Shown piece after piece: positions 4,428 through 13,696 of a stretch of DNA of 15,907 bases; position 1 is the stretch's first letter, and each line of letters starts with the position of its first letter. Made by a program: the position numbers and the translations under genes. Source of the DNA: Escherichia coli (GTDB lineage Bacteria > Pseudomonadota > Gammaproteobacteria > Enterobacterales > Enterobacteriaceae); NCBI RefSeq assembly GCF_003334335.1, contig NZ_QOWQ01000058.1; one strand, written 5' to 3'. Below the pieces are notes generated by a model that worked only from the letters and a program-made list of their open reading frames with translations, was not told the DNA's origin and made no database searches.

Positions 4428-5144
4428 TTATCCGCCCGCACCATTAACCGTTACTGTACACGCATCAGAGGTAATGCTCTGCGGCTGTTCTGCAGAATCC
4501 GTTACCTCGCAGGTATAAGCCCCCTTATCACCTGACTGCGTATTGGCTTTACTGAAAGTGTCAGTAGTCTGTCCCTCTACCGGCTGACCATCCTTCTTCC
4601 AGGCGTATTTATACGGCGGCGTTCCCCCGTTGGCACTGACTGACATTGTCAGCAGCGCACCGGTATTCACGGCAAGTGTCTTCTCCGGATTTTTCACAAA
4701 CGCCAGCGGTACCACAAAGGACACCGGTTTGCCTTTCAGACGCAGTGAAAACGTTGCTGCCACCACGCCGTTGGTACCGGATGACCAGGTGTGCTGACGC
4801 ACTTCCGCCAGGAACTTAAAGCCCTTACCGGACGGAAACTGCACCTTAAACGCATACACCGTGTCATTGTCATAGGCATCACGCAGGGCGTTCTGGGCCT
4901 GATTCAGATAAAAATTACCCGACATGGAAATCTCGGACGACGCCCCCAGACCGTTGATGTTCTCCTGCTCTGTGGAGCAGAGCGTGGTCACATCAATATC
5001 CTGTTTCTGACCGGCGGTGAACTGGACTTCCTTGATGGTGCAGTCCAGGCGCAGATATTCCGCCTTATCCATAGTTTCAGCAGTCGCCGGGGCAGATGAA
5101 ATCATCACCTGCGTCAGCTGTGAGCGTTCATACAAAGCAGACAT
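4428..5144 (-). CDS. major tail (tube) protein with C-terminal Ig-like domain
   Basis: 238-aa ORF with a strong SD (AGGAGGCAGA-ATG), positioned upstream of the G/GT chaperones. The C-terminal ~90 aa (TLAVNTGALLTMSVSANGGTPPYKYAWKKDGQPVEGQTTDTFSKANTQSGDKGAYTCEVTD...) has the Y.W.KDG...D.G.Y.C.V pattern of Ig (I-set-like) domains known to decorate phage tail tubes. Confidence 0.85.
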   Translation of the reverse strand: MSALYERSQLTQVMISSAPATAETMDKAEYLRLDCTIKEVQFTAGQKQDIDVTTLCSTEQENINGLGASSEISMSGNFYLNQAQNALRDAYDNDTVYAFKVQFPSGKGFKFLAEVRQHTWSSGTNGVVAATFSLRLKGKPVSFVVPLAFVKNPEKTLAVNTGALLTMSVSANGGTPPYKYAWKKDGQPVEGQTTDTFSKANTQSGDKGAYTCEVTDSAEQPQSITSDACTVTVNGAGG

Positions 5145-6354: not shown

Positions 6355-6681
6355 TCATAACACCGTCGGACAACGCAAATCGTAAATCAGCACGGAAACA
6401 GAAAACGGCAGCTCCCCCTGAAGCAGTTCTTCCCGCTCCGCAAGATCCGGATTCCGGTACAGCATCCCGGTCAGTCGCATGGCAGCCCCCTTCATCCGGG
6501 TTAATGCCTCGCCCGGGATCAGTTCACCGTCCTCACGAATCACTTTATCCCGGCTGCCCTGAATGTAGGCCAGCAGCACGGCGGTAGCCTGACGAACCTT
6601 GTCCATCAGCATGTCATCATCCGCGTCATGGTCGACACGCAGATGTGCCTTGATCTCTTCCAGTGTCAGTAATGCCGTCAT
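6355..6681 (-). CDS. head-tail connector protein (gp6-like, Phage_connect_1 type)
   Basis: 108-aa ORF. The N-terminal LTLEEIKAHLRVDHDADDDML...A....Y is the classic gp6-like DNA-packaging/connector signature. Confidence 0.8.
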   Translation of the reverse strand: MTALLTLEEIKAHLRVDHDADDDMLMDKVRQATAVLLAYIQGSRDKVIREDGELIPGEALTRMKGAAMRLTGMLYRNPDLAEREELLQGELPFSVSVLIYDLRCPTVL

Positions 6682-7901
6682 TTTCCGCCTCCTGCATCCC
6701 GCCCACGTTTTGCAGCCAGGGTCCAGGCTGATGAATGAGCTTCTCCGGGTTTATCGCCGGTCATGCTGTTGCAGTGCCACAACGAGCCGCCCCACGTCAC
6801 TGTATCGCCGGGGTGGTAGATTTCACCGGCTCTGAACACACCGCGGTAGAGCATCACCGGCAGGGAAAATGTTTTTTCCGTACGCTGACCACTGCTCTGC
6901 AGGACCACCACAGAGAACAACCGCTCACCCGTCATGCTGACGTCAATATCCGCCACCCCGTCAACCAGGCATTCCCATCCCCGCATCCCGTGCGTTTTTT
7001 CATACGCCCGCCAGAGTCCGCCCTGGTGTGTGGCATACGTGCCCCGGGGAAAGGATTTTTGATCGTCAATGGCGGGGAGTATTTCCAGTGCCGTGGCATC
7101 ACGCCCGCCCTGCGGAGCCGGCAGGGCACTCACCGCATCCAGAACCGCCTTCTGCAGAACATCCGGATCGTAGTCACGACCGTCGCGCGGAACAGGAATA
7201 TGGCTTACCGCCTCCTTCACCATCTGCTCAAGCATCGGACGCACATCATCGGGAGTGATACTTTTACCGTTCGCCGGTACAGGAATATTTGCGACCGCAT
7301 CATTCACCGCCTTCTGCAATACTTCCGGATCGTAGTCACGACCATCACGCGGAACAGGGATATGACTTACCGCCTCCTTCACCATCTGTTCAAGCATCGG
7401 ACGCACATCATCCGGGGTGAGACTTTTACCGTCCGCTGGCTGCGGAATATTTGCGACCGCATCATTCACCGCCTTCTGCAGAACATCGGGATCATAGTCA
7501 CGACCGTCGCGCGGAACAGGGATATGGCTTACCGCCTCCTTCACCATCTGCTCAAGCATCGGACGCACATCATCGGGGGTAATACTTTTGCCGTCCGCCG
7601 GTACCGGAATATTCGCAACCGCATCATTCACCGCCTGCTTCAGTACTTCCGGATCGTAATCACGACCATCACGCGGTACCGGAATGGCCCCCACAGCGTC
7701 ATCCACCATCGCCTGCAGAACCAGACGCACCTCATCCACCGTCACATGCTTCTGTAATACCGCCGACAGGGAAGTCAGTTTCTCTTCAAACGCTTGTGCC
7801 TGCGAGGCCATCTTCCCCTCAAATGTGCGCTGTAAATCCGCCAGCACTGTGGAGAATTCTTCACCCAGCGCACGGATAATGGACAGTTCACGCTCTGTCA
7901 T
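6678..7901 (-). CDS. tandem-repeat virion-module protein with carbohydrate-binding-like C-terminus (function unknown; candidate head/neck fibre or decoration protein)
   Basis: 407-aa ORF with ATGA overlaps to the portal stop (7898-7901) and the connector start (6678-6681). It has a coiled-coil-like N-terminus, then 3.5 copies of a 54-aa unit. The C-terminal globular part ends IYHPGDTVTWGGSLWHCNSMTGDKPG...W. Confidence 0.85.
   Translation of the reverse strand: MTERELSIIRALGEEFSTVLADLQRTFEGKMASQAQAFEEKLTSLSAVLQKHVTVDEVRLVLQAMVDDAVGAIPVPRDGRDYDPEVLKQAVNDAVANIPVPADGKSITPDDVRPMLEQMVKEAVSHIPVPRDGRDYDPDVLQKAVNDAVANIPQPADGKSLTPDDVRPMLEQMVKEAVSHIPVPRDGRDYDPEVLQKAVNDAVANIPVPANGKSITPDDVRPMLEQMVKEAVSHIPVPRDGRDYDPDVLQKAVLDAVSALPAPQGGRDATALEILPAIDDQKSFPRGTYATHQGGLWRAYEKTHGMRGWECLVDGVADIDVSMTGERLFSVVVLQSSGQRTEKTFSLPVMLYRGVFRAGEIYHPGDTVTWGGSLWHCNSMTGDKPGEAHSSAWTLAAKRGRDAGGGK
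7125..7685 (-). repeat. in-frame 162-bp tandem repeat, ~3.5 copies (54-aa protein unit)
   Basis: The units IPVPRDGRDYDP(E/D)VL..AVNDAVAN plus IP(V/Q)PA(D/N)GKS(I/L)TPDDVRPMLEQMVKEAVSH repeat at aa 73-259. The DNA copies are clearly alignable by eye and differ mainly at synonymous positions. Confidence 0.95.
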
Positions 7902-9262
7902 TTTCGCAGTATCCCCCTGAACATCGCCTTCACCGCATCACGCTCTGTTTCGCTTATGGCCTTATTACCGTCAGACGCGCCCTCCTGGCGTGTGCCTGAC
8001 GACGTTTTCCCGGAAGACGCGAACGGATCCTCACGGGCATCACGACGGGACAGCGCCTCCAGACTGTAGTTCTGCTGCTGAAGATACAGTGCATCGCCTC
8101 CTGCCAGGGGCGGCAGATTCTCACGTTTACGGGCCTCATTGGGCGTGAGAAGCGTATTTTTCACCGCATCCCCCAGCGTTTTCATGCGACGTTCGCTGTC
8201 CATTCTCAGCAGCGTGGTGACGTCAAACTCCGTGCTCTCGTTTTCCCCTGTTTCCAGCGCCTCATCCAGTAACAGCTCAATGGACTCAATCAGCGTCTGC
8301 AGACACTGGGAATAATACTGCTGCTCCAGCGCCTCCACGTTGTCACTGGAAGGCGGTTGTCCCACACCAATCTTGTAGGCCGGGACACGGAACACCGAAC
8401 AGACAATTTCAGCCGTCATTTTCAGCTGTTCCACCGTCTGCGCATCCACCGGTGAAAACGTCGTGGGGTTATATTTCGCCCCGTTGCTCAGGATCGCCGT
8501 TTTCCCCGCATTTTCGCCGGTATACCCGCTGTCCCAGTTGCTCTTCAGTTTTTTCGCATTTTCTTCCGTTATACTGCCGGGGATCTCAATCACCCCGGAC
8601 GGCCTGCCGCCATTTCTGAAAAAAGACGTTGAATTTGCCTGAATATGATGCCCCTGCGTGGCAGCCAGCCCGGCAGCATACACCGGCGGCAGCCCCACAA
8701 GCGGATGAAAAAAACAGTTAAACCGGTCGTGGATCACTTCCCTGGCAGGCACCGTCACCGCCTCCGTGATCCCGCAGTTCCGGTCCGGTGTAATGCGATA
8801 GAACACCTCGCCGTCATCCGCCACCAGAGGTTCAACCCGGCTCCAGTCCAGAATACGCAGTTCTTTGATCTGCCCCCGGGAGTTACGGATTTTCAGCACC
8901 ACCGTATTGCCGTGACGCAGTTTGGCGTTCAGCCACAGTTCAAAAAACTGGATACGATTCTGCTGTGCATTGGGACGACGACAGAGACGGGCAATATCCC
9001 CCCGGCGCGTTTCCCTGCGTATCCCATGCGCATCCGTCTGCATAAGACGCAGCCGCATTTTGGCGATATCCTGGGATATCAGCGAAATACATGCAAACAC
9101 CGCATGAAAGGAGAGGACGGCTTCAGGATCGGCTTTCACGCCCTGCTGCCAGGCGCCGGAAAAGGGCTCAGCCACCGCCTGAAACAGGCTGGTCCAGCCC
9201 ACCTCTTTTACATCACGTCCTGATTTCTGGTTTTTTCGGGTTCGCCGCAAAAGGTTCCACAT
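7898..9262 (-). CDS. portal protein (HK97 family)
   Basis: 454-aa ORF with several features typical of Phage_portal (HK97-type) proteins: SF.AVFACISLISQDIAKM.L.L, RPN..Q....F.E.W...L..GN, FF.NGGRPSGV..., GENAGK.AIL..GAKY, DAQ..E...... and FRVP. Confidence 0.9.
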   Translation of the reverse strand: MWNLLRRTRKNQKSGRDVKEVGWTSLFQAVAEPFSGAWQQGVKADPEAVLSFHAVFACISLISQDIAKMRLRLMQTDAHGIRRETRRGDIARLCRRPNAQQNRIQFFELWLNAKLRHGNTVVLKIRNSRGQIKELRILDWSRVEPLVADDGEVFYRITPDRNCGITEAVTVPAREVIHDRFNCFFHPLVGLPPVYAAGLAATQGHHIQANSTSFFRNGGRPSGVIEIPGSITEENAKKLKSNWDSGYTGENAGKTAILSNGAKYNPTTFSPVDAQTVEQLKMTAEIVCSVFRVPAYKIGVGQPPSSDNVEALEQQYYSQCLQTLIESIELLLDEALETGENESTEFDVTTLLRMDSERRMKTLGDAVKNTLLTPNEARKRENLPPLAGGDALYLQQQNYSLEALSRRDAREDPFASSGKTSSGTRQEGASDGNKAISETERDAVKAMFRGILRK

Positions 9263-9429
9263 TCGCCATGCTCCGCATCACGTTTCTTTTTCTGACCTGC
9301 CGGACGTCGCACTGTGATGTACTCCGCCTTCCCCAGGCGAACCAGCACCTCCGCACACGGCTGTGCCACATCACGGATATCCCCGGCCCGGGCATCATGC
9401 GTGCCCTGCAGATACTGGATTTTTGCCAT
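9208..9429 (-). CDS. hypothetical small protein between capsid and portal genes
   Basis: 73-aa ORF (MAKIQYLQGTHDARAGDIRDVAQPCAEVLVRLGKAEYI...) that fills the capsid-portal gap. Its 3' end overlaps the portal start by 55 nt, it has no clear SD, and I recognise no homology. Confidence 0.4.
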   Translation of the reverse strand: MAKIQYLQGTHDARAGDIRDVAQPCAEVLVRLGKAEYITVRRPAGQKKKRDAEHGECGTFCGEPEKTRNQDVM

Positions 9430-9473
9430 CAGTTACTGCGGGAAGCTCGCGCCTCCCGCCCTCCTCATCAGAC

Positions 9474-10835
9474 TCAGCCGCCGGACGCAGTTCCGTAGTT
9501 CACACCGGTGATCACCGCCACTGCCGCGGTACGGCGACGACGCCAGTTGATCCAGCGCTCCGCACGGATGGCCACGCTGCCTGTCTGGAACATGGAAACC
9601 AGCTCCACCGGGGACGGCGTGGTACTGTCGCCGGTCGGCTCAGACTGCATTTCCAGTGATGCCTCGCGGGACATATCCACTGCCACGCCGCCGTCATCCG
9701 CCAGATAAATATCCGGGGCATTCACCAGCACCAGCTGGTCACCCACGTACTGGGAGACAATCACCGGCAGCCCCTGGAAGGAGCCACCCAGCAGGGTCAT
9801 GTCCGGGTATTCCTTCTGACCCAGCGCATTTTTACGCATGGACAGTGCCAGGGCATTGGTGCTGGACATCAGCCAGACCGCACCGGTGGGCTGCAGGTTT
9901 GCTGCCACAAACTGTCCAAACGCAGCCTCTGCATCCGCATCCGGGTTACCGGTTGATGCCGTGCCCTTCACATCATGGGTGATGGACGCCGGGGAGACAT
10001 CTGCCACTGCGGCTTTTTTCGGGTCCACAAAGTCTGTATCCAGACGCGCCACCACCGCTTCCGCCAGCGCATTACGGACCAGTGCATCAGCAGCCGGACT
10101 GGAAAAACGGATCAATTCTTCCGTCAGTACCGCAATGGCCGACACTTTCGCATGACTGAAGGTGATGGATTCAAAATCAAACTTCGTCAGGGGTTTTGCC
10201 TTACCCTCACCCACCCAGCCGGCAGCACCGCCGGACACCTGGGCGTGCACACGGATATTGAACGGCACCTGACGAAGTGCAGGGATCCCGCCCTGACCAA
10301 ATCGCCCGATAATGGTCTGCGGACGCAGGTAATCAATAAAGTCCTGTGCGTATTCCTGATATTCAGACAGGCTGCCTGCCCACTGCGGATCCGTGGTGGT
10401 CCCCGCGCCCACTGCCGATTTCAGGACATGATGCAGACGACTGTCATCCGGATACTGACGACGGGCCACTTCCAGGGCTTCAGATCGGACGCCTTTAGCC
10501 GCAGCCAGCGATTTGGCAAAGCGGGCGAAGCCAATCCCCTTATCCAGTTTCTGCTCCACACGGATCACCGGCGCAGAAGCCACCGCGGCCACATTCCCGT
10601 TACCGGCCTGTTTCACCGGCTGCGCCGTGGCGGCCTTACCGGCTTCCAGTTCACGCAGGCGCTTCAGGTGCGCATCCACCTGACGGATTTCCGCTGCGGT
10701 GTTGTCGTAATGCTCTTCCTCCTCCACATCCAGCGTGCGCCCTTCCTCTGCGGCTTTGGTCATGACCTCCTCAAGGGAGGCTGCCAGCGCTGCACGCTTG
10801 TTTTCAAAACTTTTAATCTGTTCGCCAATATTCAT
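9474..10835 (-). CDS. candidate independently initiated major capsid protein (in-frame internal start within the fusion ORF)
   Basis: ATG at 10835 (MNIGEQIKSFENKRAAL...) is preceded by AAGGAAAAGACCATA, an SD-like AAGGA about 10 nt upstream. It sits exactly at the protease/delta-domain boundary, and the 453-aa product would have normal HK97-type capsid size. Confidence 0.45.
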   Translation of the reverse strand: MNIGEQIKSFENKRAALAASLEEVMTKAAEEGRTLDVEEEEHYDNTAAEIRQVDAHLKRLRELEAGKAATAQPVKQAGNGNVAAVASAPVIRVEQKLDKGIGFARFAKSLAAAKGVRSEALEVARRQYPDDSRLHHVLKSAVGAGTTTDPQWAGSLSEYQEYAQDFIDYLRPQTIIGRFGQGGIPALRQVPFNIRVHAQVSGGAAGWVGEGKAKPLTKFDFESITFSHAKVSAIAVLTEELIRFSSPAADALVRNALAEAVVARLDTDFVDPKKAAVADVSPASITHDVKGTASTGNPDADAEAAFGQFVAANLQPTGAVWLMSSTNALALSMRKNALGQKEYPDMTLLGGSFQGLPVIVSQYVGDQLVLVNAPDIYLADDGGVAVDMSREASLEMQSEPTGDSTTPSPVELVSMFQTGSVAIRAERWINWRRRRTAAVAVITGVNYGTASGG

Positions 10836-11411
10836 TATGGTCTTTTCCTTATGAAAAACGGTTGTTGACTGTGCCGCAGCGCCGGCAGAAGATGCGATTT
10901 TCACCACCGGTTTCCGGTTGCCGGACGCGGCAGAAAACGGGCGGTCGTAAGATTTAATGGTCCGGATGGTGCATTCCGCATTCGCGGGCACGGTGACGGC
11001 AGACACCTCCATCAGTTCCCAGCGCATAAAATGCAGTCCGCCTCCGTCCAGAAAGGTGTATTCATGGGGACGGAAGCCCACGGACAGCCCCCTGACCAGC
11101 CCGGTCTTAATGGCCGCCCAGACCTCATCCAGCCGGGCAGCCAGTTGCGACGGCATATCCGGTACGGGCTTCACCAGTGTTGCCGTGATTTCCAGCCCTT
11201 CGCTGACCCGGCGCACCGTACACTGCCCCACCGGGCGGGAATGGTCATGCTGCCAGAGAAACGGGATCGCACTGCCAAACTCCGCGCCCTCCGGCTCCAG
11301 GATGTCACCATCCCGATCCGGAGAAGGCGTTGACGCAATCCCGGTGATCACCCGTTCATCCTCACTGAAGGATTTCACCGTCAGCAGGGAACAGGCCCGT
11401 TTAAGAGTCAC
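9474..11411 (-). CDS. prohead protease - major capsid protein fusion (HK97 family domains)
   Basis: Single 645-aa ORF with a GTG start at 11411, 5 nt after AGGAGG. Residues ~1-165 resemble HK97-type prohead serine protease (ITGIASTPSPDRDGDILEPEGAEF ... GLSVGF ... EVSAVTVPAN). Residues ~193-260 form an acidic coiled coil resembling a delta/scaffold domain. Residues ~270-645 resemble HK97-fold major capsid protein. Confidence 0.85.
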   Translation of the reverse strand: MTLKRACSLLTVKSFSEDERVITGIASTPSPDRDGDILEPEGAEFGSAIPFLWQHDHSRPVGQCTVRRVSEGLEITATLVKPVPDMPSQLAARLDEVWAAIKTGLVRGLSVGFRPHEYTFLDGGGLHFMRWELMEVSAVTVPANAECTIRTIKSYDRPFSAASGNRKPVVKIASSAGAAAQSTTVFHKEKTIMNIGEQIKSFENKRAALAASLEEVMTKAAEEGRTLDVEEEEHYDNTAAEIRQVDAHLKRLRELEAGKAATAQPVKQAGNGNVAAVASAPVIRVEQKLDKGIGFARFAKSLAAAKGVRSEALEVARRQYPDDSRLHHVLKSAVGAGTTTDPQWAGSLSEYQEYAQDFIDYLRPQTIIGRFGQGGIPALRQVPFNIRVHAQVSGGAAGWVGEGKAKPLTKFDFESITFSHAKVSAIAVLTEELIRFSSPAADALVRNALAEAVVARLDTDFVDPKKAAVADVSPASITHDVKGTASTGNPDADAEAAFGQFVAANLQPTGAVWLMSSTNALALSMRKNALGQKEYPDMTLLGGSFQGLPVIVSQYVGDQLVLVNAPDIYLADDGGVAVDMSREASLEMQSEPTGDSTTPSPVELVSMFQTGSVAIRAERWINWRRRRTAAVAVITGVNYGTASGG

Positions 11412-11474
11412 ATCAGCCTCCTGAAAATAAAAAAACCGCCGGAGCAGTTCGTGATGGTTACAGTGTGAACAGGG

Positions 11475-13136
11475 TTATATGAAAAAAACCGCATATTCTT
11501 TCTTTTTCGGTTCCGGGTTAAGGGACATCAGGGAGACCGCATTGAACAGCGCCATCAGCGGGTCAATTTTTCCCCGTCCACTGGTCTGTTTGGTGATAAG
11601 AATGGCGTTACCTTTAGGCTCCACCCGGGCATTGCCGACACACCAGGCCATCAGGGGCTGGTCACCATGCACCAGCACCCCTTCAGCCAGTTTGCGCTCG
11701 GTGGTTTTAATGGCCCCGCCCAGTTTCCAGCCCTGGCTTATCCCCACCACAATTCCGTCGGGGATCCCGGCTTCCGCCAGTGAATCCAGAATCTGCCCCA
11801 CCCCTGACGGGTCAATACCGATATGGTCCAGTAACTCAGCCTCATGAATACGACGCACATACTCCGCCACTTCCGCCGTGTCATCCCCGACACGCCGGAC
11901 AATGGTCATATCTCCACAGGCAACAAGATCCTGAAACCGGGACGCCTCGCTCTTCCGTCGGACCACCGCGGTTTCATGCGCCCAGGCATGGCCCCAGCCC
12001 AGCCATTCGCGGGTCTCCCGGTCACGCCCAATCACATACATCCCCAGCAGATCATCCAGCCCTCCGCCGTCAATCCCCACCGTCACCACATCAGCACGAC
12101 GCAGGATATCGTCCAGGCTGATACAACGGCCCTGCTCTTCCCAGAAATCAGCCCCCGCCCAGCGGTCAGAGCGCAGGGCAAGACCAATTTCCACATTGGC
12201 GTGTTTTGACATGAACCCCCGGAATGTCTCTTCACCGGCTTCCCGGGCTTTACGGTACTCCCGGTACAGAAAGGCCTCATCCACTGAATAGCCGAGATTC
12301 GGATTGACCATGGCGAGGTTTTCCATCAGCAGGTGAGCCCCGCTTTCCACCATTTCAGGAGGGTGTTCAAATATCACCGGCAGAAAGTGCGGATCATGAA
12401 TTTTGCCGTCACGCACATCCCGGGCGTACTGCAGTTTCTGTCTGAACACCCCGGCGGGCGGTTCATTCGACTGGGTGGTCGTATACACCACAAACCCTTC
12501 CGGGCGGGAGGCAAGGCCGCCTATGGCTTCACGTAACATGTCCTCCGCCTTGCACTGCTTGCCAAACAGCCACAACTCATCAATCAGCGTACCCACGGAC
12601 TTGATACCGGACACCGTATTCGGATCGGCTGCCACCACCTTCAGGGTGGTGTCTGTCACCCTGTGGGTGATGGTCCGGATATGGGTCTGTACCTGGCAGA
12701 GGTCATCCAGATCATCGTCACGTCGTACCATATCCCGGGCAGGGTTGAAGGCGTTGGCCGCCACCTCCACAGTCGGGGCCAGAATCGTGTAACCCGCCGC
12801 CTGCCGCCAGTTCAGTAACAGCGCCGTCATCATGATCCCCGCGGCCAGCGTGGACTTCGAGTTTTTCTTGGGGATAAGGATAAAAACTTCCTTGATATGG
12901 CGTACACCGGTCTGCGCATCGTAGGAGCCAAACAGGGCCGCCACCAGGTCAAACACCCACGGTGCACAGGACTCCCCGAACGTAGGGCTACCAGGTGCAT
13001 CCACAATCCGCAGTTGTTTAAAAATCGCCAGGGCATGTGCGGCCTCGTCCGGATAAATCGGATCCGGAATAATCGACAGCCCCTTTTTCAGGCGCTCAGC
13101 CCAGTCCGGGCAGGCTGTGCTCCATACAGGTATCAT
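11475..13136 (-). CDS. terminase large subunit (Terminase_1 / HK97 gp2-like)
   Basis: 553-aa ORF whose start overlaps the terS stop (ATGA). A deviant Walker A (ILIPKKNSKST) follows in the N-terminal ATPase part, and acidic nuclease-type motifs lie in the C-terminal half (VGIDGGGLDDL..., IGIDPSG). Confidence 0.9.
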   Translation of the reverse strand: MIPVWSTACPDWAERLKKGLSIIPDPIYPDEAAHALAIFKQLRIVDAPGSPTFGESCAPWVFDLVAALFGSYDAQTGVRHIKEVFILIPKKNSKSTLAAGIMMTALLLNWRQAAGYTILAPTVEVAANAFNPARDMVRRDDDLDDLCQVQTHIRTITHRVTDTTLKVVAADPNTVSGIKSVGTLIDELWLFGKQCKAEDMLREAIGGLASRPEGFVVYTTTQSNEPPAGVFRQKLQYARDVRDGKIHDPHFLPVIFEHPPEMVESGAHLLMENLAMVNPNLGYSVDEAFLYREYRKAREAGEETFRGFMSKHANVEIGLALRSDRWAGADFWEEQGRCISLDDILRRADVVTVGIDGGGLDDLLGMYVIGRDRETREWLGWGHAWAHETAVVRRKSEASRFQDLVACGDMTIVRRVGDDTAEVAEYVRRIHEAELLDHIGIDPSGVGQILDSLAEAGIPDGIVVGISQGWKLGGAIKTTERKLAEGVLVHGDQPLMAWCVGNARVEPKGNAILITKQTSGRGKIDPLMALFNAVSLMSLNPEPKKKEYAVFFI

Positions 13137-13696
13137 CCGTTGCCCTCATTATCGTTATTCACCACCAGTCGGGGTGGCGGTGGCACCGCAAAACGGTTAG
13201 CCGCTTTTTTCGCGGCATCACCTTTTGCCGATTTTTTCCCGGTATCCCCTTTTTTATGGTGCGTGAACTGCGCCAGACGCCAGGCCGCATCCAGTGCCAG
13301 TTTCGGATCAATGCAGAGGTTTTCCACCAGGATCCGCCCCATGGCTTTCACCGGATCGGGAAGACCATCCTCCATATATTCAATACCAGGAGACATCACC
13401 GCGGACGGTGGCATCTCCGGATTGTTTTCGTCCGGCTGTGGTATTGCAGCCGCCTCACGACGACGGGGTTTATCCTCCTGCTCTGATTTTTTCTGCCGGT
13501 AAACAGGAACCTCATCCACCTCCACCGTCTCGCATTGTTTACGGGCTATAAACGCAAGCACCTCCGGATCTTTTGCCAGCTGCGAGCCTTTAACCCTGGC
13601 GGTCTTCGCCGAATAACCGGCGGCAATGGCTGACGCTGTTTTGTTTTTCCCGGACATGAGCGCCAGCGCAAATTTTCGTTTTTGCGTTGTCAGCAC
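13133..13696 (-). CDS. terminase small subunit (Terminase_2-type N-terminal HTH)
   Basis: 187-aa ORF with a GTG start after GGAGGAGG. The N-terminus KRKFALALMSGKNKTASAIAAGYSAKTARVKGSQLAKDPEV matches the ...F...Y....N...AA..AGYS.KTA...GS.L pattern of Terminase_2 small subunits. It lies immediately upstream of terL. Confidence 0.85.
   Translation of the reverse strand: MLTTQKRKFALALMSGKNKTASAIAAGYSAKTARVKGSQLAKDPEVLAFIARKQCETVEVDEVPVYRQKKSEQEDKPRRREAAAIPQPDENNPEMPPSAVMSPGIEYMEDGLPDPVKAMGRILVENLCIDPKLALDAAWRLAQFTHHKKGDTGKKSAKGDAAKKAANRFAVPPPPRLVVNNDNEGNG

What the first reader, a model, noticed from the sequence alone, without database searches (positions are those of the whole stretch)
9474..11411. 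Prohead protease and major capsid protein in one ORF, with an internal in-frame SD+ATG at the domain boundary
HK97-type phages normally encode the protease and capsid as separate adjacent genes. Here a single uninterrupted 645-aa frame carries a protease-like N-terminal domain, a Gly/Ala/Ser linker, an acidic coiled-coil (delta/scaffold-like) segment and the capsid fold. Exactly at the linker/coiled-coil junction there is an ATG (10835) preceded by AAGGA at suitable spacing. The locus could therefore make two nested products with a common C-terminus. One would be a minor full-length protease-capsid fusion that co-assembles and so delivers protease into the prohead. The other would be an abundant capsid protein from the internal start. 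This is the same logic as the nested in-frame lambda C/Nu3 pair. Fusion ORFs of this type are named in genome annotation, but whether the internal start sets stoichiometry is not evident from sequence alone.
Basis: partly seen in the sequence, partly recalled or inferred. Interest (0 to 1): 0.55.

Follow-up and report, generated by a model that had tools for sequence, protein, structure and literature searches.

The report
Protease-capsid fusion gene with internal start
This is the well-known fused head-protease/capsid gene of long-tailed Shiga-toxin prophages, and comparison with hundreds of relatives shows that the start signal inside it is kept by selection, so it very probably makes two nested proteins, though nobody has shown this at the bench.

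Summary
A 645-codon ORF lies on the minus strand (11411→9474, GTG start). It carries an HK97-type S78 protease domain, a disordered linker, a helical delta-like segment and an HK97-fold capsid domain. An in-frame ATG (10835-10833, codon 193) follows AAGGA by 10 nt.

The ORF is not an artefact. It occurs as one CDS in 1255 of 5426 complete E. coli genomes and in plaque-forming Stx phages.

In this sequence alone the ATG+SD is not beyond chance: 6 of 11 in-frame ATGs have an SD-like core. Comparison changes that:
- Loci were chosen by motifs away from the junction. All 77 fused ones have a start codon at this boundary, 73 ATG and 4 GTG, so every Val there is GTG.
- 72 of 80 distinct junctions have an SD core. 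In distant relatives it is AGGAGGG, often the best SD-like site in the gene.
- Stand-alone capsid genes begin at exactly this Met.
- In the enteric relatives the boundary is the GC minimum of the ORF, and in the window it is also the least structured stretch.

Best reading: two nested products, a 69 kDa protease-capsid fusion and a 48 kDa capsid precursor, by the lambda C/Nu3 logic. Their ratio is untested. The fusion is already known; the conserved internal start is a modest new variant.

The parts
9474..11411 (-). Full ORF of 645 codons plus stop (9476-9474): protease, linker, delta-like domain and capsid protein; predicted 69.1 kDa
   Evidence: single CDS in 1255 E. coli genomes
11417..11422 (-). 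Shine-Dalgarno AGGAGG of the first start; 5-nt spacer
   Evidence: pairing energy -10.3 kcal/mol
11409..11411 (-). First start codon, GTG; relatives outside the near-identical E. coli phage group have ATG at the homologous position
10971..11375 (-). HK97-type (Peptidase_S78) prohead serine protease domain, aa 13-147; His55 codon at 11249-11247, Ser110 codon at 11084-11082
   Evidence: Pfam; H55 and S110 invariant in 91 sequences and aligned with His and Ser of HK97 gp4; confident AF2 model
10836..10970 (-). Disordered, basic, Gly/Ala/Ser/Thr/Lys-rich linker, aa 148-192; poorly conserved in sequence and length
   Evidence: pLDDT below 50 at aa 148-189; composition; alignments
10846..10850 (-). 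Internal Shine-Dalgarno AAGGA, 10 nt before the internal ATG; encoded by Lys-Glu codons
   Evidence: an SD core is present in 72 of 80 distinct junctions of relatives through different amino acids
10805..10865 (-). AT-rich, weakly structured stretch around the internal start (about 30% GC against 59% for the gene); approximate bounds
   Evidence: 60-nt GC minimum of the ORF lies within 6 nt of the ATG in 18 of 19 loci; fold energy -5.8 against a gene mean of -18 kcal/mol
10833..10835 (-). Internal in-frame ATG, codon 193; proposed start of a 453-aa, 48.2 kDa delta-capsid precursor
10626..10835 (-). Delta-like (scaffold-like) acidic helical hairpin, aa 193-262
   Evidence: helices 195-223 and 229-262, pLDDT about 97; pI 4.85
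10536..10625 (-). Flexible segment, aa 263-292, between the helical hairpin and the capsid fold; likely region of the maturation cleavage (inferred)
   Evidence: no secondary structure and lower pLDDT
9477..10535 (-). HK97-fold major capsid protein body, aa 293-645
   Evidence: Pfam Phage_capsid; Foldseek matches to Bxb1, HK97, D3 and T5 capsids, E 2e-15 to 1e-9

Best explanation
The ORF is the head-morphogenesis gene of a Pankowvirus-type lambdoid (Stx-converting) prophage. It fuses an active HK97-type serine protease, through a flexible linker, to a capsid protein that carries its own N-terminal scaffold-like (delta) domain.

The gene holds two translation initiation sites in one frame.
- Ribosomes starting at GTG 11411 make the 69 kDa protease-delta-capsid fusion. 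This is the only source of protease.
- Ribosomes starting at ATG 10835 make the 48 kDa delta-capsid precursor.

Both products co-assemble into the prohead through their shared delta-capsid part. The N-terminus of a delta domain points inward, so the fused protease ends up inside the shell. There it removes the delta domains and itself, leaving the mature capsid protein of about 350 aa. The ratio of the two initiation rates would set the number of protease copies per prohead.

Shown: the domain architecture, the conservation of the catalytic residues, and the conservation of the internal start codon and SD.
Inferred: that both products are made, that they co-assemble, the cleavage, and which product is in excess.
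For: Architecture.
- Pfam S78 plus Phage_capsid.
- AF2 domains, with the disordered linker ending just before Met193.
- HK97 fold.
- His55 and Ser110 invariant.

Not an artefact.
- 93 phage records.
- 1255 of 5426 complete E. coli genomes.
- Fused relatives at about 75% identity across Enterobacterales.
- Fused architecture in 145 of the best 150 representatives at 38-54% identity.
- Viable phages phi330 (PMC12502783) and PAJU2, whose ORF003 is annotated 'prohead protease fused capsid protein'.

Internal start under selection.
(a) Protein representatives found without reference to the junction: 130 of 145 fused ones have Met within 8 residues upstream of the conserved Glu197 column. Most of the rest have Val there. 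Met frequency in the 40 linker residues upstream is 0.5%.
(b) DNA set found through motifs in the protease and the capsid fold: all 80 loci have a start codon at the boundary, 76 ATG and 4 GTG (73 and 4 among the 77 fused). Every Val case is GTG.
(c) 72 of 80 distinct junctions have a 4-nt SD core at -17 to -8, against 11% of codon positions in the window gene.
(d) In the 45 distant junctions only aggAGGgc and ATGAA are conserved within 70 nt. There the SD is among the best 0.3-1% of sites in the ORF.
(e) The SD is written through different residues: KE, KG, QG, PKEG, PEEG, PQEG, LEG.
(f) The GC minimum of the ORF sits on the internal ATG in 18 of 19 mainly enteric loci, and in the window the least structured stretch does too. 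The internal site is less structured than the first start in 50 of 64 loci.
(g) Separate capsid genes start at the homologous Met. In Burkholderia phage vB_SBP39 the protease stop lies 13 nt before it. In L074 an in-frame TAA lies directly before it.
(h) Each stand-alone capsid protein has a fused nearest neighbour. The fused state is therefore old and widespread, not a set of recent accidents.
Against: - There is no direct evidence for either product: no proteomics, N-terminal sequencing or ribosome profiling for this gene was found. The phi330 mass-spectrometry maps published cover only the short-tailed phages.
- In the window and its enteric relatives the internal SD is weak (-5.6 to -6.2 kcal/mol) and its 10-nt spacing is long. 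It is statistically unremarkable on its own.
- Ribosomes elongating from the first start pass through the internal site and could interfere with initiation there.
- The first start has the stronger SD in 29 of 64 loci, so 'fusion minor, capsid major' is not established.
- A T=7 prohead could probably hold a protease on every subunit. That is my own rough volume estimate, not a computation made here, but it means a single product is not physically excluded.
Confidence: 0.75

Rival explanations
1. Single polyprotein only. Every capsid subunit is made with its own protease, which cleaves itself off after assembly. The internal ATG and SD are a relic of the time when protease and capsid were two genes and are not used to any meaningful extent.
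For: The ORF is uninterrupted. In the window alone the ATG+SD is not above chance. The junction does derive from a former gene start, because separate capsid genes begin there. The window keeps an out-of-frame TAAGGA 16 nt before the ATG, the same distance as the protease stop plus SD in Burkholderia phage vB_SBP39.
Against: A relic would decay. The linker around it is unalignable at 40-55% identity, yet all 77 fused loci keep a start codon, and the only substitute seen is GTG. The SD persists through changing amino acids and is the only conserved feature besides the ATG. Fused genes dominate across deep divergence, so repeated very recent fusions are unlikely.
Confidence: 0.17
2. The continuous frame is a sequencing or assembly artefact, or a decayed prophage gene, that hides a stop codon or frameshift between two real genes.
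For: Database chimeras do exist near this gene, for example P0001 (terminase plus capsid, 1079 aa) and P0004 (capsid plus portal, 784 aa). A few true relatives are unfused.
Against: The same frame is present in 1252 complete E. coli genomes at full length, in 92 phage records, in a protein cluster of 9916 member sequences, in relatives from many genera, and in the plaque-forming phage phi330, which was Sanger-sequenced (PMC12502783).
Confidence: 0.01
3. Free protease is released by a programmed frameshift, or by termination at the out-of-frame stop codons next to the junction (TAA at 10851-10849 and at 10837-10835). The capsid protein is then made by coupled re-initiation at ATG 10835.
For: Both alternative frames hit a TAA within 20 nt upstream of the internal ATG. 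T- and A-runs precede it in the window and in enteric relatives.
Against: There is no canonical slippery heptamer in the zero frame. The out-of-frame stops are what an AT-rich stretch gives by chance. They are absent from the GC-rich relatives, whose junctions read for example gaagcccgaggagggcgatATG, although these keep the ATG and SD.
Confidence: 0.03

Closest known systems
Phage lambda C / Nu3 nested genes (established knowledge, recalled, not tested here)
   Same: A long ORF has the prohead protease at its N-terminus. An in-frame internal start gives a shorter product with the same C-terminus. The shared C-terminal part takes the protease into the prohead.
   Different: In lambda the shared part is a scaffolding protein and the capsid protein gpE is a separate gene. 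The lambda protease belongs to the ClpP/S49 type, not S78. Here the shared part is the capsid protein itself with its delta domain.
Phage HK97 gp4 (protease) and gp5 (capsid protein with delta domain)
   Same: The same protease family, with the His and Ser positions aligned. The same capsid fold. An N-terminal helical scaffold-like domain. The capsid start lies right at the end of the protease coding sequence; in HK97 the stop is followed by 2 nt and then ATG.
   Different: HK97 has two genes and, from recalled literature, targets the protease non-covalently. Its gene order is terminase, portal, protease, capsid. Here the order is terminase, protease-capsid, portal.
[quoted passage not shown] 2010, cited in PMC12315714) and gp5 of Pseudomonas phage MD8 (PMC8508860); also Paracoccus prophages (PMC6536676)
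   Same: One ORF encodes protease, a scaffold-like middle part and the capsid protein.
   Different: Those carry a ClpP/lambda-C-like protease and a lambda/Mu-like scaffold and capsid. This gene carries an S78 protease and an HK97 gp5-like delta domain. The papers I could read do not discuss an internal start. I could not read Effantin 2010.
Pseudomonas phage PAJU2 ORF003, annotated 'prohead protease fused capsid protein'
   Same: A true homologue (about 38% identity over linker and delta domain) in an isolated phage, with the same gene order. Its Met197 is preceded by AGGAGGG, the best SD-like site upstream of any in-frame ATG in the gene at -10.8 kcal/mol.
   Different: It has a much stronger internal SD than the window. 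Its publication was not available to me, so I do not know whether its virion proteins were N-terminally sequenced.
Herpesvirus UL26 / UL26.5 and phage Mu I / Z (recalled, not tested)
   Same: A protease-scaffold fusion plus an in-frame shorter scaffold with the same C-terminus, the short form in excess.
   Different: In herpesvirus the short form comes from its own promoter and mRNA. No promoter-like site lies upstream of ATG 10835. The carrier there is again a scaffold, not the capsid protein.

Membership tests
HK97-type prohead serine protease (Pfam Peptidase_S78, MEROPS S78) | Significant match to the family profile | tested here: met
   PF04586, 35.5 bits against a cut-off of 21, aa 48-152; PHROG 80 'head maturation protease', E 2e-40
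HK97-type prohead serine protease (Pfam Peptidase_S78, MEROPS S78) | Catalytic His and Ser present | tested here: met
   His55 and Ser110 are invariant in 91 homologues. They align with the His in FFNHK and the Ser in GMSVGF of HK97 gp4. That these are the catalytic residues is recalled knowledge.
HK97-type prohead serine protease (Pfam Peptidase_S78, MEROPS S78) | Proteolytic removal of the delta domain inside the prohead | not testable with these tools
   Needs biochemistry
HK97-fold major capsid protein with N-terminal delta domain | HK97 fold | tested here: met
   PF05065, 53.1 bits against a cut-off of 24.2; Foldseek matches to Bxb1, HK97, D3 and T5 capsid proteins, E 2e-15 to 1e-9
HK97-fold major capsid protein with N-terminal delta domain | N-terminal helical scaffold-like domain of about 100 aa that is removed on maturation | tested here: inconclusive
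   A helical hairpin at aa 195-262 is predicted with high confidence. Its removal and the cleavage site are unknown.
Nested in-frame gene pair for protease delivery (lambda C/Nu3 type) | Internal in-frame start codon with its own ribosome-binding site inside a protease-carrying ORF | tested here: met
   ATG 10835 with AAGGA. A start codon is kept in all 77 fused relatives and an SD core in 72 of 80 distinct junctions.
Nested in-frame gene pair for protease delivery (lambda C/Nu3 type) | Two polypeptides with a common C-terminus are actually made, the shorter in excess | not testable with these tools
   No proteomic or ribosome-profiling data were found
Gifsy-2-type tripartite capsid gene | Protease, scaffold and capsid protein in one ORF | tested here: met
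Gifsy-2-type tripartite capsid gene | ClpP/lambda-C-like (S49/S14) protease domain | tested here: not met
   The only protease family matched is S78. The window gene is therefore an analogue, not a member.

The most novel reading that the evidence does not exclude
S78 protease-capsid fusion genes as a class, with hundreds of sequence clusters in Proteobacteria, are nested gene pairs. The capsid protein itself is the vehicle that carries a dosed number of protease molecules into the prohead. The dose is set by two competing translation start sites in one frame. Lineages switch between covalent (fused) and non-covalent (separate genes) delivery by gain or loss of a single stop codon while the internal start site stays in place.
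Probability: 0.6. Interest if true: 0.5.

Novelty: new variant of a known kind. Interest (0 to 1): 0.45.

Why it matters
How a fixed, small number of protease molecules gets into each prohead is a standing question in capsid assembly. HK97 is reported to use a docking tail (recalled). Lambda, Mu and the herpesviruses use a nested scaffold. Here the capsid protein itself would be the carrier, with the dose set at translation.

The gene sits in about a quarter of complete E. coli genomes and in the long-tailed Stx1 and Stx2 phages, so its products matter for reading proteomes and for annotation. Current annotation gives one CDS, named either 'major capsid protein' or 'prohead protease', and misses the second product.

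The system is easy to test: one Met codon, one SD, and a plaque-forming phage (phi330).

It is not a surprise in kind. A phage-assembly specialist would see it as the expected solution.

Tried and rejected
- Single-sequence statistics. SD pairing energy and SD-core counts in the window gene do not single out codon 193. The case therefore rests on comparison with relatives.
- First scan of genome contigs. The tool chose the pattern M[NA]I[AG]E[QHS]IKS, so the Met was selected for. I used those 18 loci only for the SD and composition. I repeated the test with sets chosen independently of the junction.
- Internal promoter, by analogy with herpesvirus UL26.5. No sigma-70-like site lies in 10700-11600.
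- Frameshift or termination at out-of-frame stops near the junction. These stops are not conserved in GC-rich relatives.
- Sequence search of solved structures. Only a weak match to the Bxb1 capsid protein came up. The fold search was informative instead.
- Literature.
  - Duda et al. 2013 (PMC3709472) is not held.
  - Effantin et al. 2010 and the PAJU2 paper are not held.
  - The phi330 paper shows peptide maps only for short-tailed phages.
  - No paper found discusses an internal start in an S78-capsid fusion. The library lacks most subscription journals, so prior description cannot be excluded.
- A Val at the junction as an ordinary hydrophobic substitute. Rejected for the four cases where DNA was available, all GTG. 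It remains untested for the roughly ten Val-carrying representatives known only as proteins.
Full report
WHAT IS THERE. The ORF of the finding lies on the minus strand, from 11411 down to 9474. It has 645 codons and starts with GTG, and AGGAGG lies 5 nt upstream of that start. On the same strand it sits in a head and tail module:
- small terminase, 13696-13133;
- large terminase, 13136-11475;
- this gene;
- portal, 9262-7898;
- a 407-aa ORF;
- head-tail connector proteins;
- tail tube with an Ig-like domain;
- tape measure protein.

The DNA is 98-99.6% identical to long-tailed Stx-converting phages: 2851, YYZ-2008, JLK-2012, BP-4795, WGPS6 and phi330. In those records the gene is called 'major head protein/prohead protease', 'major capsid protein' or 'phage prohead protease'. 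These phages belong to the genus Pankowvirus. Phage phi330 is a plaque-forming siphovirus with a 55 nm head (PMC12502783).

DOMAINS.
- Pfam finds Peptidase_S78 at aa 48-152 and Phage_capsid at aa 386-635.
- An AlphaFold2 model built on 91 homologues (mean pLDDT 84.6) gives a confident protease domain at aa 13-147. A linker at aa 148-189 has pLDDT below 50. Two long helices follow at 195-223 and 229-262, then a loose segment at 263-292 and a confident C-terminal domain.
- Foldseek matches the C-terminal domain to the capsid proteins of Bxb1, HK97, D3 and T5.
- His55 and Ser110 are invariant in the family. They align with the His and Ser of HK97 gp4.
- The helical segment is acidic, pI 4.85. The linker is basic and 33% Gly+Ala+Ser.

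Met193 sits two residues before the first confident helix, exactly at the linker/helix boundary.

IS THE FUSED FRAME REAL? Yes.
- The full-length gene is present in 1252 of 5426 complete E. coli genomes, with up to 7 copies per genome. PGAP annotates it as one CDS.
- A protein cluster of 9916 member sequences represents it.
- Fused relatives at about 75% identity occur in Salmonella, Enterobacter, Klebsiella, Serratia, Kosakonia and Pantoea.
- An exhaustive profile-free search of 1.84 billion representatives found 1195 proteins at E below 1e-30. Of the best 150, at 38-54% identity, 145 have the fused architecture.
- HK97 itself has two genes. In this clade fusion is the rule.

IS THE INTERNAL START MORE THAN CHANCE? 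Taken alone, no.
- AAGGA pairs with the anti-SD at -6.2 kcal/mol, and 17% of codon positions in the gene do as well.
- 6 of the 11 in-frame ATGs have a 4-nt SD core at suitable spacing.

Four independent lines of evidence change the picture.

(1) Homology to a real gene start. Burkholderia phage vB_SBP39 has separate protease and capsid genes, and its capsid Met1 aligns with Met193. Stand-alone capsid proteins among the representatives start at query residues 193-196. In locus L074 the two genes are in the same frame and are separated only by a TAA directly before the ATG.

(2) Conservation of the start codon. Among the 145 fused representatives, 130 have Met within 8 residues upstream of the conserved Glu197 column, and 102 of these sit at -4 or -5. 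Most of the others have Val there. Met frequency in the 40 linker residues upstream is only 0.5%. I then collected DNA from IMG/VR through motifs in the protease (ELSxVxxPA) and in the capsid fold (WVGxGxxKP). The junction played no part in that selection. All 80 loci have a start codon at the boundary, 76 ATG and 4 GTG. Of the 80, 77 are fused, and these carry 73 ATG and 4 GTG. The four Val cases are all GTG. A hydrophobic position in a helix would be expected to drift to Leu or Ile. Replacement only by GTG is the signature of a start codon.

(3) Conservation of the SD at the nucleotide level.
- 72 of 80 distinct fused junctions carry GGAG, AGGA or GAGG at -17 to -8. The background is 11% of codon positions in the window gene.
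- In the 45 distant junctions (41-55% identity), only aggAGGgc at -14 to -7 and ATGAA are conserved within 70 nt.
- In those genes the site ranks among the best 0.3-1% of positions in the ORF. Across all 64 comparable loci it is stronger than the SD of the first start in 35.
- The motif is written through different amino acids: Lys-Glu in the window; Lys-Gly or Gln-Gly in other enterics; Pro-Lys-Glu-Gly, Pro-Glu-Glu-Gly, Pro-Gln-Glu-Gly or Leu-Glu-Gly elsewhere.

(4) Context.
- In 18 of 19 loci (the window and its mainly enteric relatives) the 60-nt GC minimum of the whole ORF lies within 6 nt of the internal ATG, at about 30% GC against 55-60% for the gene.
- In the window the predicted folding energy there is -5.8 kcal/mol against a gene mean of -18±5, which puts it in the least structured 1.3% of windows.
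- The internal site is less structured than the first start in 50 of 64 loci.
- In the wider IMG/VR set the GC minimum lies within 15 nt of the internal start in 35 of 65 loci. This composition signal is therefore mainly a feature of the enteric branch. The GC-rich branch has the very strong SD instead.

EVOLUTION. Each of the 8 stand-alone capsid proteins has a fused protein as its nearest relative. Fusion is therefore old and dominant, and separation has arisen several times. A start site that was no longer used would not survive this much divergence in a linker that is otherwise unalignable. In the window an out-of-frame TAAGGA lies 16 nt before the ATG. That is the same distance as the protease stop plus SD in the Burkholderia phage. 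It may be a trace of the former gene end, or it may be coincidence.

MECHANISM.
- Two products are expected, of 69.1 kDa from GTG 11411 and 48.2 kDa from ATG 10835.
- The fusion is the only source of protease.
- Delta domains point into the prohead (established for HK97, recalled), so an N-terminal extension would place the protease inside.
- After assembly the protease would remove the delta domains, the linker and itself.
- In the window the first start combines a weaker start codon (GTG) with a strong SD and a more structured site (-10.9 kcal/mol). The internal start combines ATG with a modest SD and an open site. This fits a minor fusion and a major capsid precursor but does not prove it. 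Enteric relatives outside the E. coli group use ATG at the first start.
- No promoter-like site precedes the internal ATG, so both products would come from the same late mRNA.

RIVALS.
- A single polyprotein with a relic start site is the main alternative. It is disfavoured by the conservation pattern but is not physically excluded.
- An artefact is excluded.
- Frameshifting at the nearby out-of-frame stops is not supported, because GC-rich relatives lack those stops.

COMPARISON WITH WHAT IS KNOWN.
- The fusion itself is known. The annotations date from the first Stx-phage genomes.
- PAJU2 ORF003 is labelled 'prohead protease fused capsid protein'.
- PHROG 4523 is named 'major head and protease protein'.
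- Analogous ClpP-type tripartite genes are described for Gifsy-2, MD8 and Paracoccus prophages.
- Nested in-frame starts that deliver a protease are known for lambda C/Nu3, Mu I/Z and herpesvirus UL26/UL26.5 (recalled). In all of them the carrier is a scaffolding protein.
- I found no paper that describes a conserved internal start in S78-capsid fusions. The library lacks the most relevant subscription papers, so I cannot exclude that it has been noted.
- I rate it a new variant of a known kind, of moderate interest.

VERDICT. The stoichiometry, and the existence of the two polypeptides themselves, remain to be shown experimentally.

Noticed in passing
window 7898-13696 (minus strand): The gene order is small terminase, large terminase, protease-capsid, portal. 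In HK97 the portal gene precedes protease and capsid. Pseudomonas phage PAJU2 and Burkholderia phage vB_SBP39 share the order seen in the window.
   Followed up: partly
window 6678-7901 (minus strand): A 407-aa ORF starts with an ATGA overlap on the portal stop codon. It matches positions 455-859 of an 859-residue PHROG profile named 'portal protein' (phrog_2271, E 4e-270). Elsewhere, portal and this ORF are therefore called as one protein. Whether that reflects a real fusion, a frameshift product or mis-annotation is open.
   Followed up: no
window 11433-11450 (minus strand): A terminator-like hairpin followed by a T-run lies between the large-terminase stop and the SD of the head gene. One such site is no more than shuffled sequence gives.
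   Followed up: no
window 10849-10851 (minus strand); L001 2083-2098: An out-of-frame TAAGGA lies 16 nt before the internal ATG. The in-frame protease stop plus SD (TAAGGA) of Burkholderia phage vB_SBP39 lies at the same distance from its capsid ATG. This may be a trace of the ancestral gene end, or coincidence.
   Followed up: partly
L074 2092-2097: In this IMG/VR relative the protease and capsid genes are in the same frame, separated only by TAA directly abutting the ATG (aagTAAATG). One point mutation would interconvert the fused and unfused states.
   Followed up: partly
proteins P0001 and P0004: Database entries near-identical to the window protein are fused to the large terminase (1079 aa) or to the portal (784 aa). 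Each is a single sequence, and P0004 comes from a short contig. They are probably frameshift or assembly artefacts, a reminder that fused calls need checking.
   Followed up: no
window 4428-5144 (minus strand): The tail tube protein carries a C-terminal immunoglobulin-like domain (Pfam Ig_2 and Ig_3, aa about 150-233).
   Followed up: no
L001 2050-2085 against window 10806-10835: MAFFT placed the C-terminal tail of the separate Burkholderia protease (VAIDLSFRSFQ) against the first residues of the delta domain (MNIGEQIKSFE). This could be an alignment artefact. It could also hint that the free protease docks by imitating the delta N-terminus.
   Followed up: no
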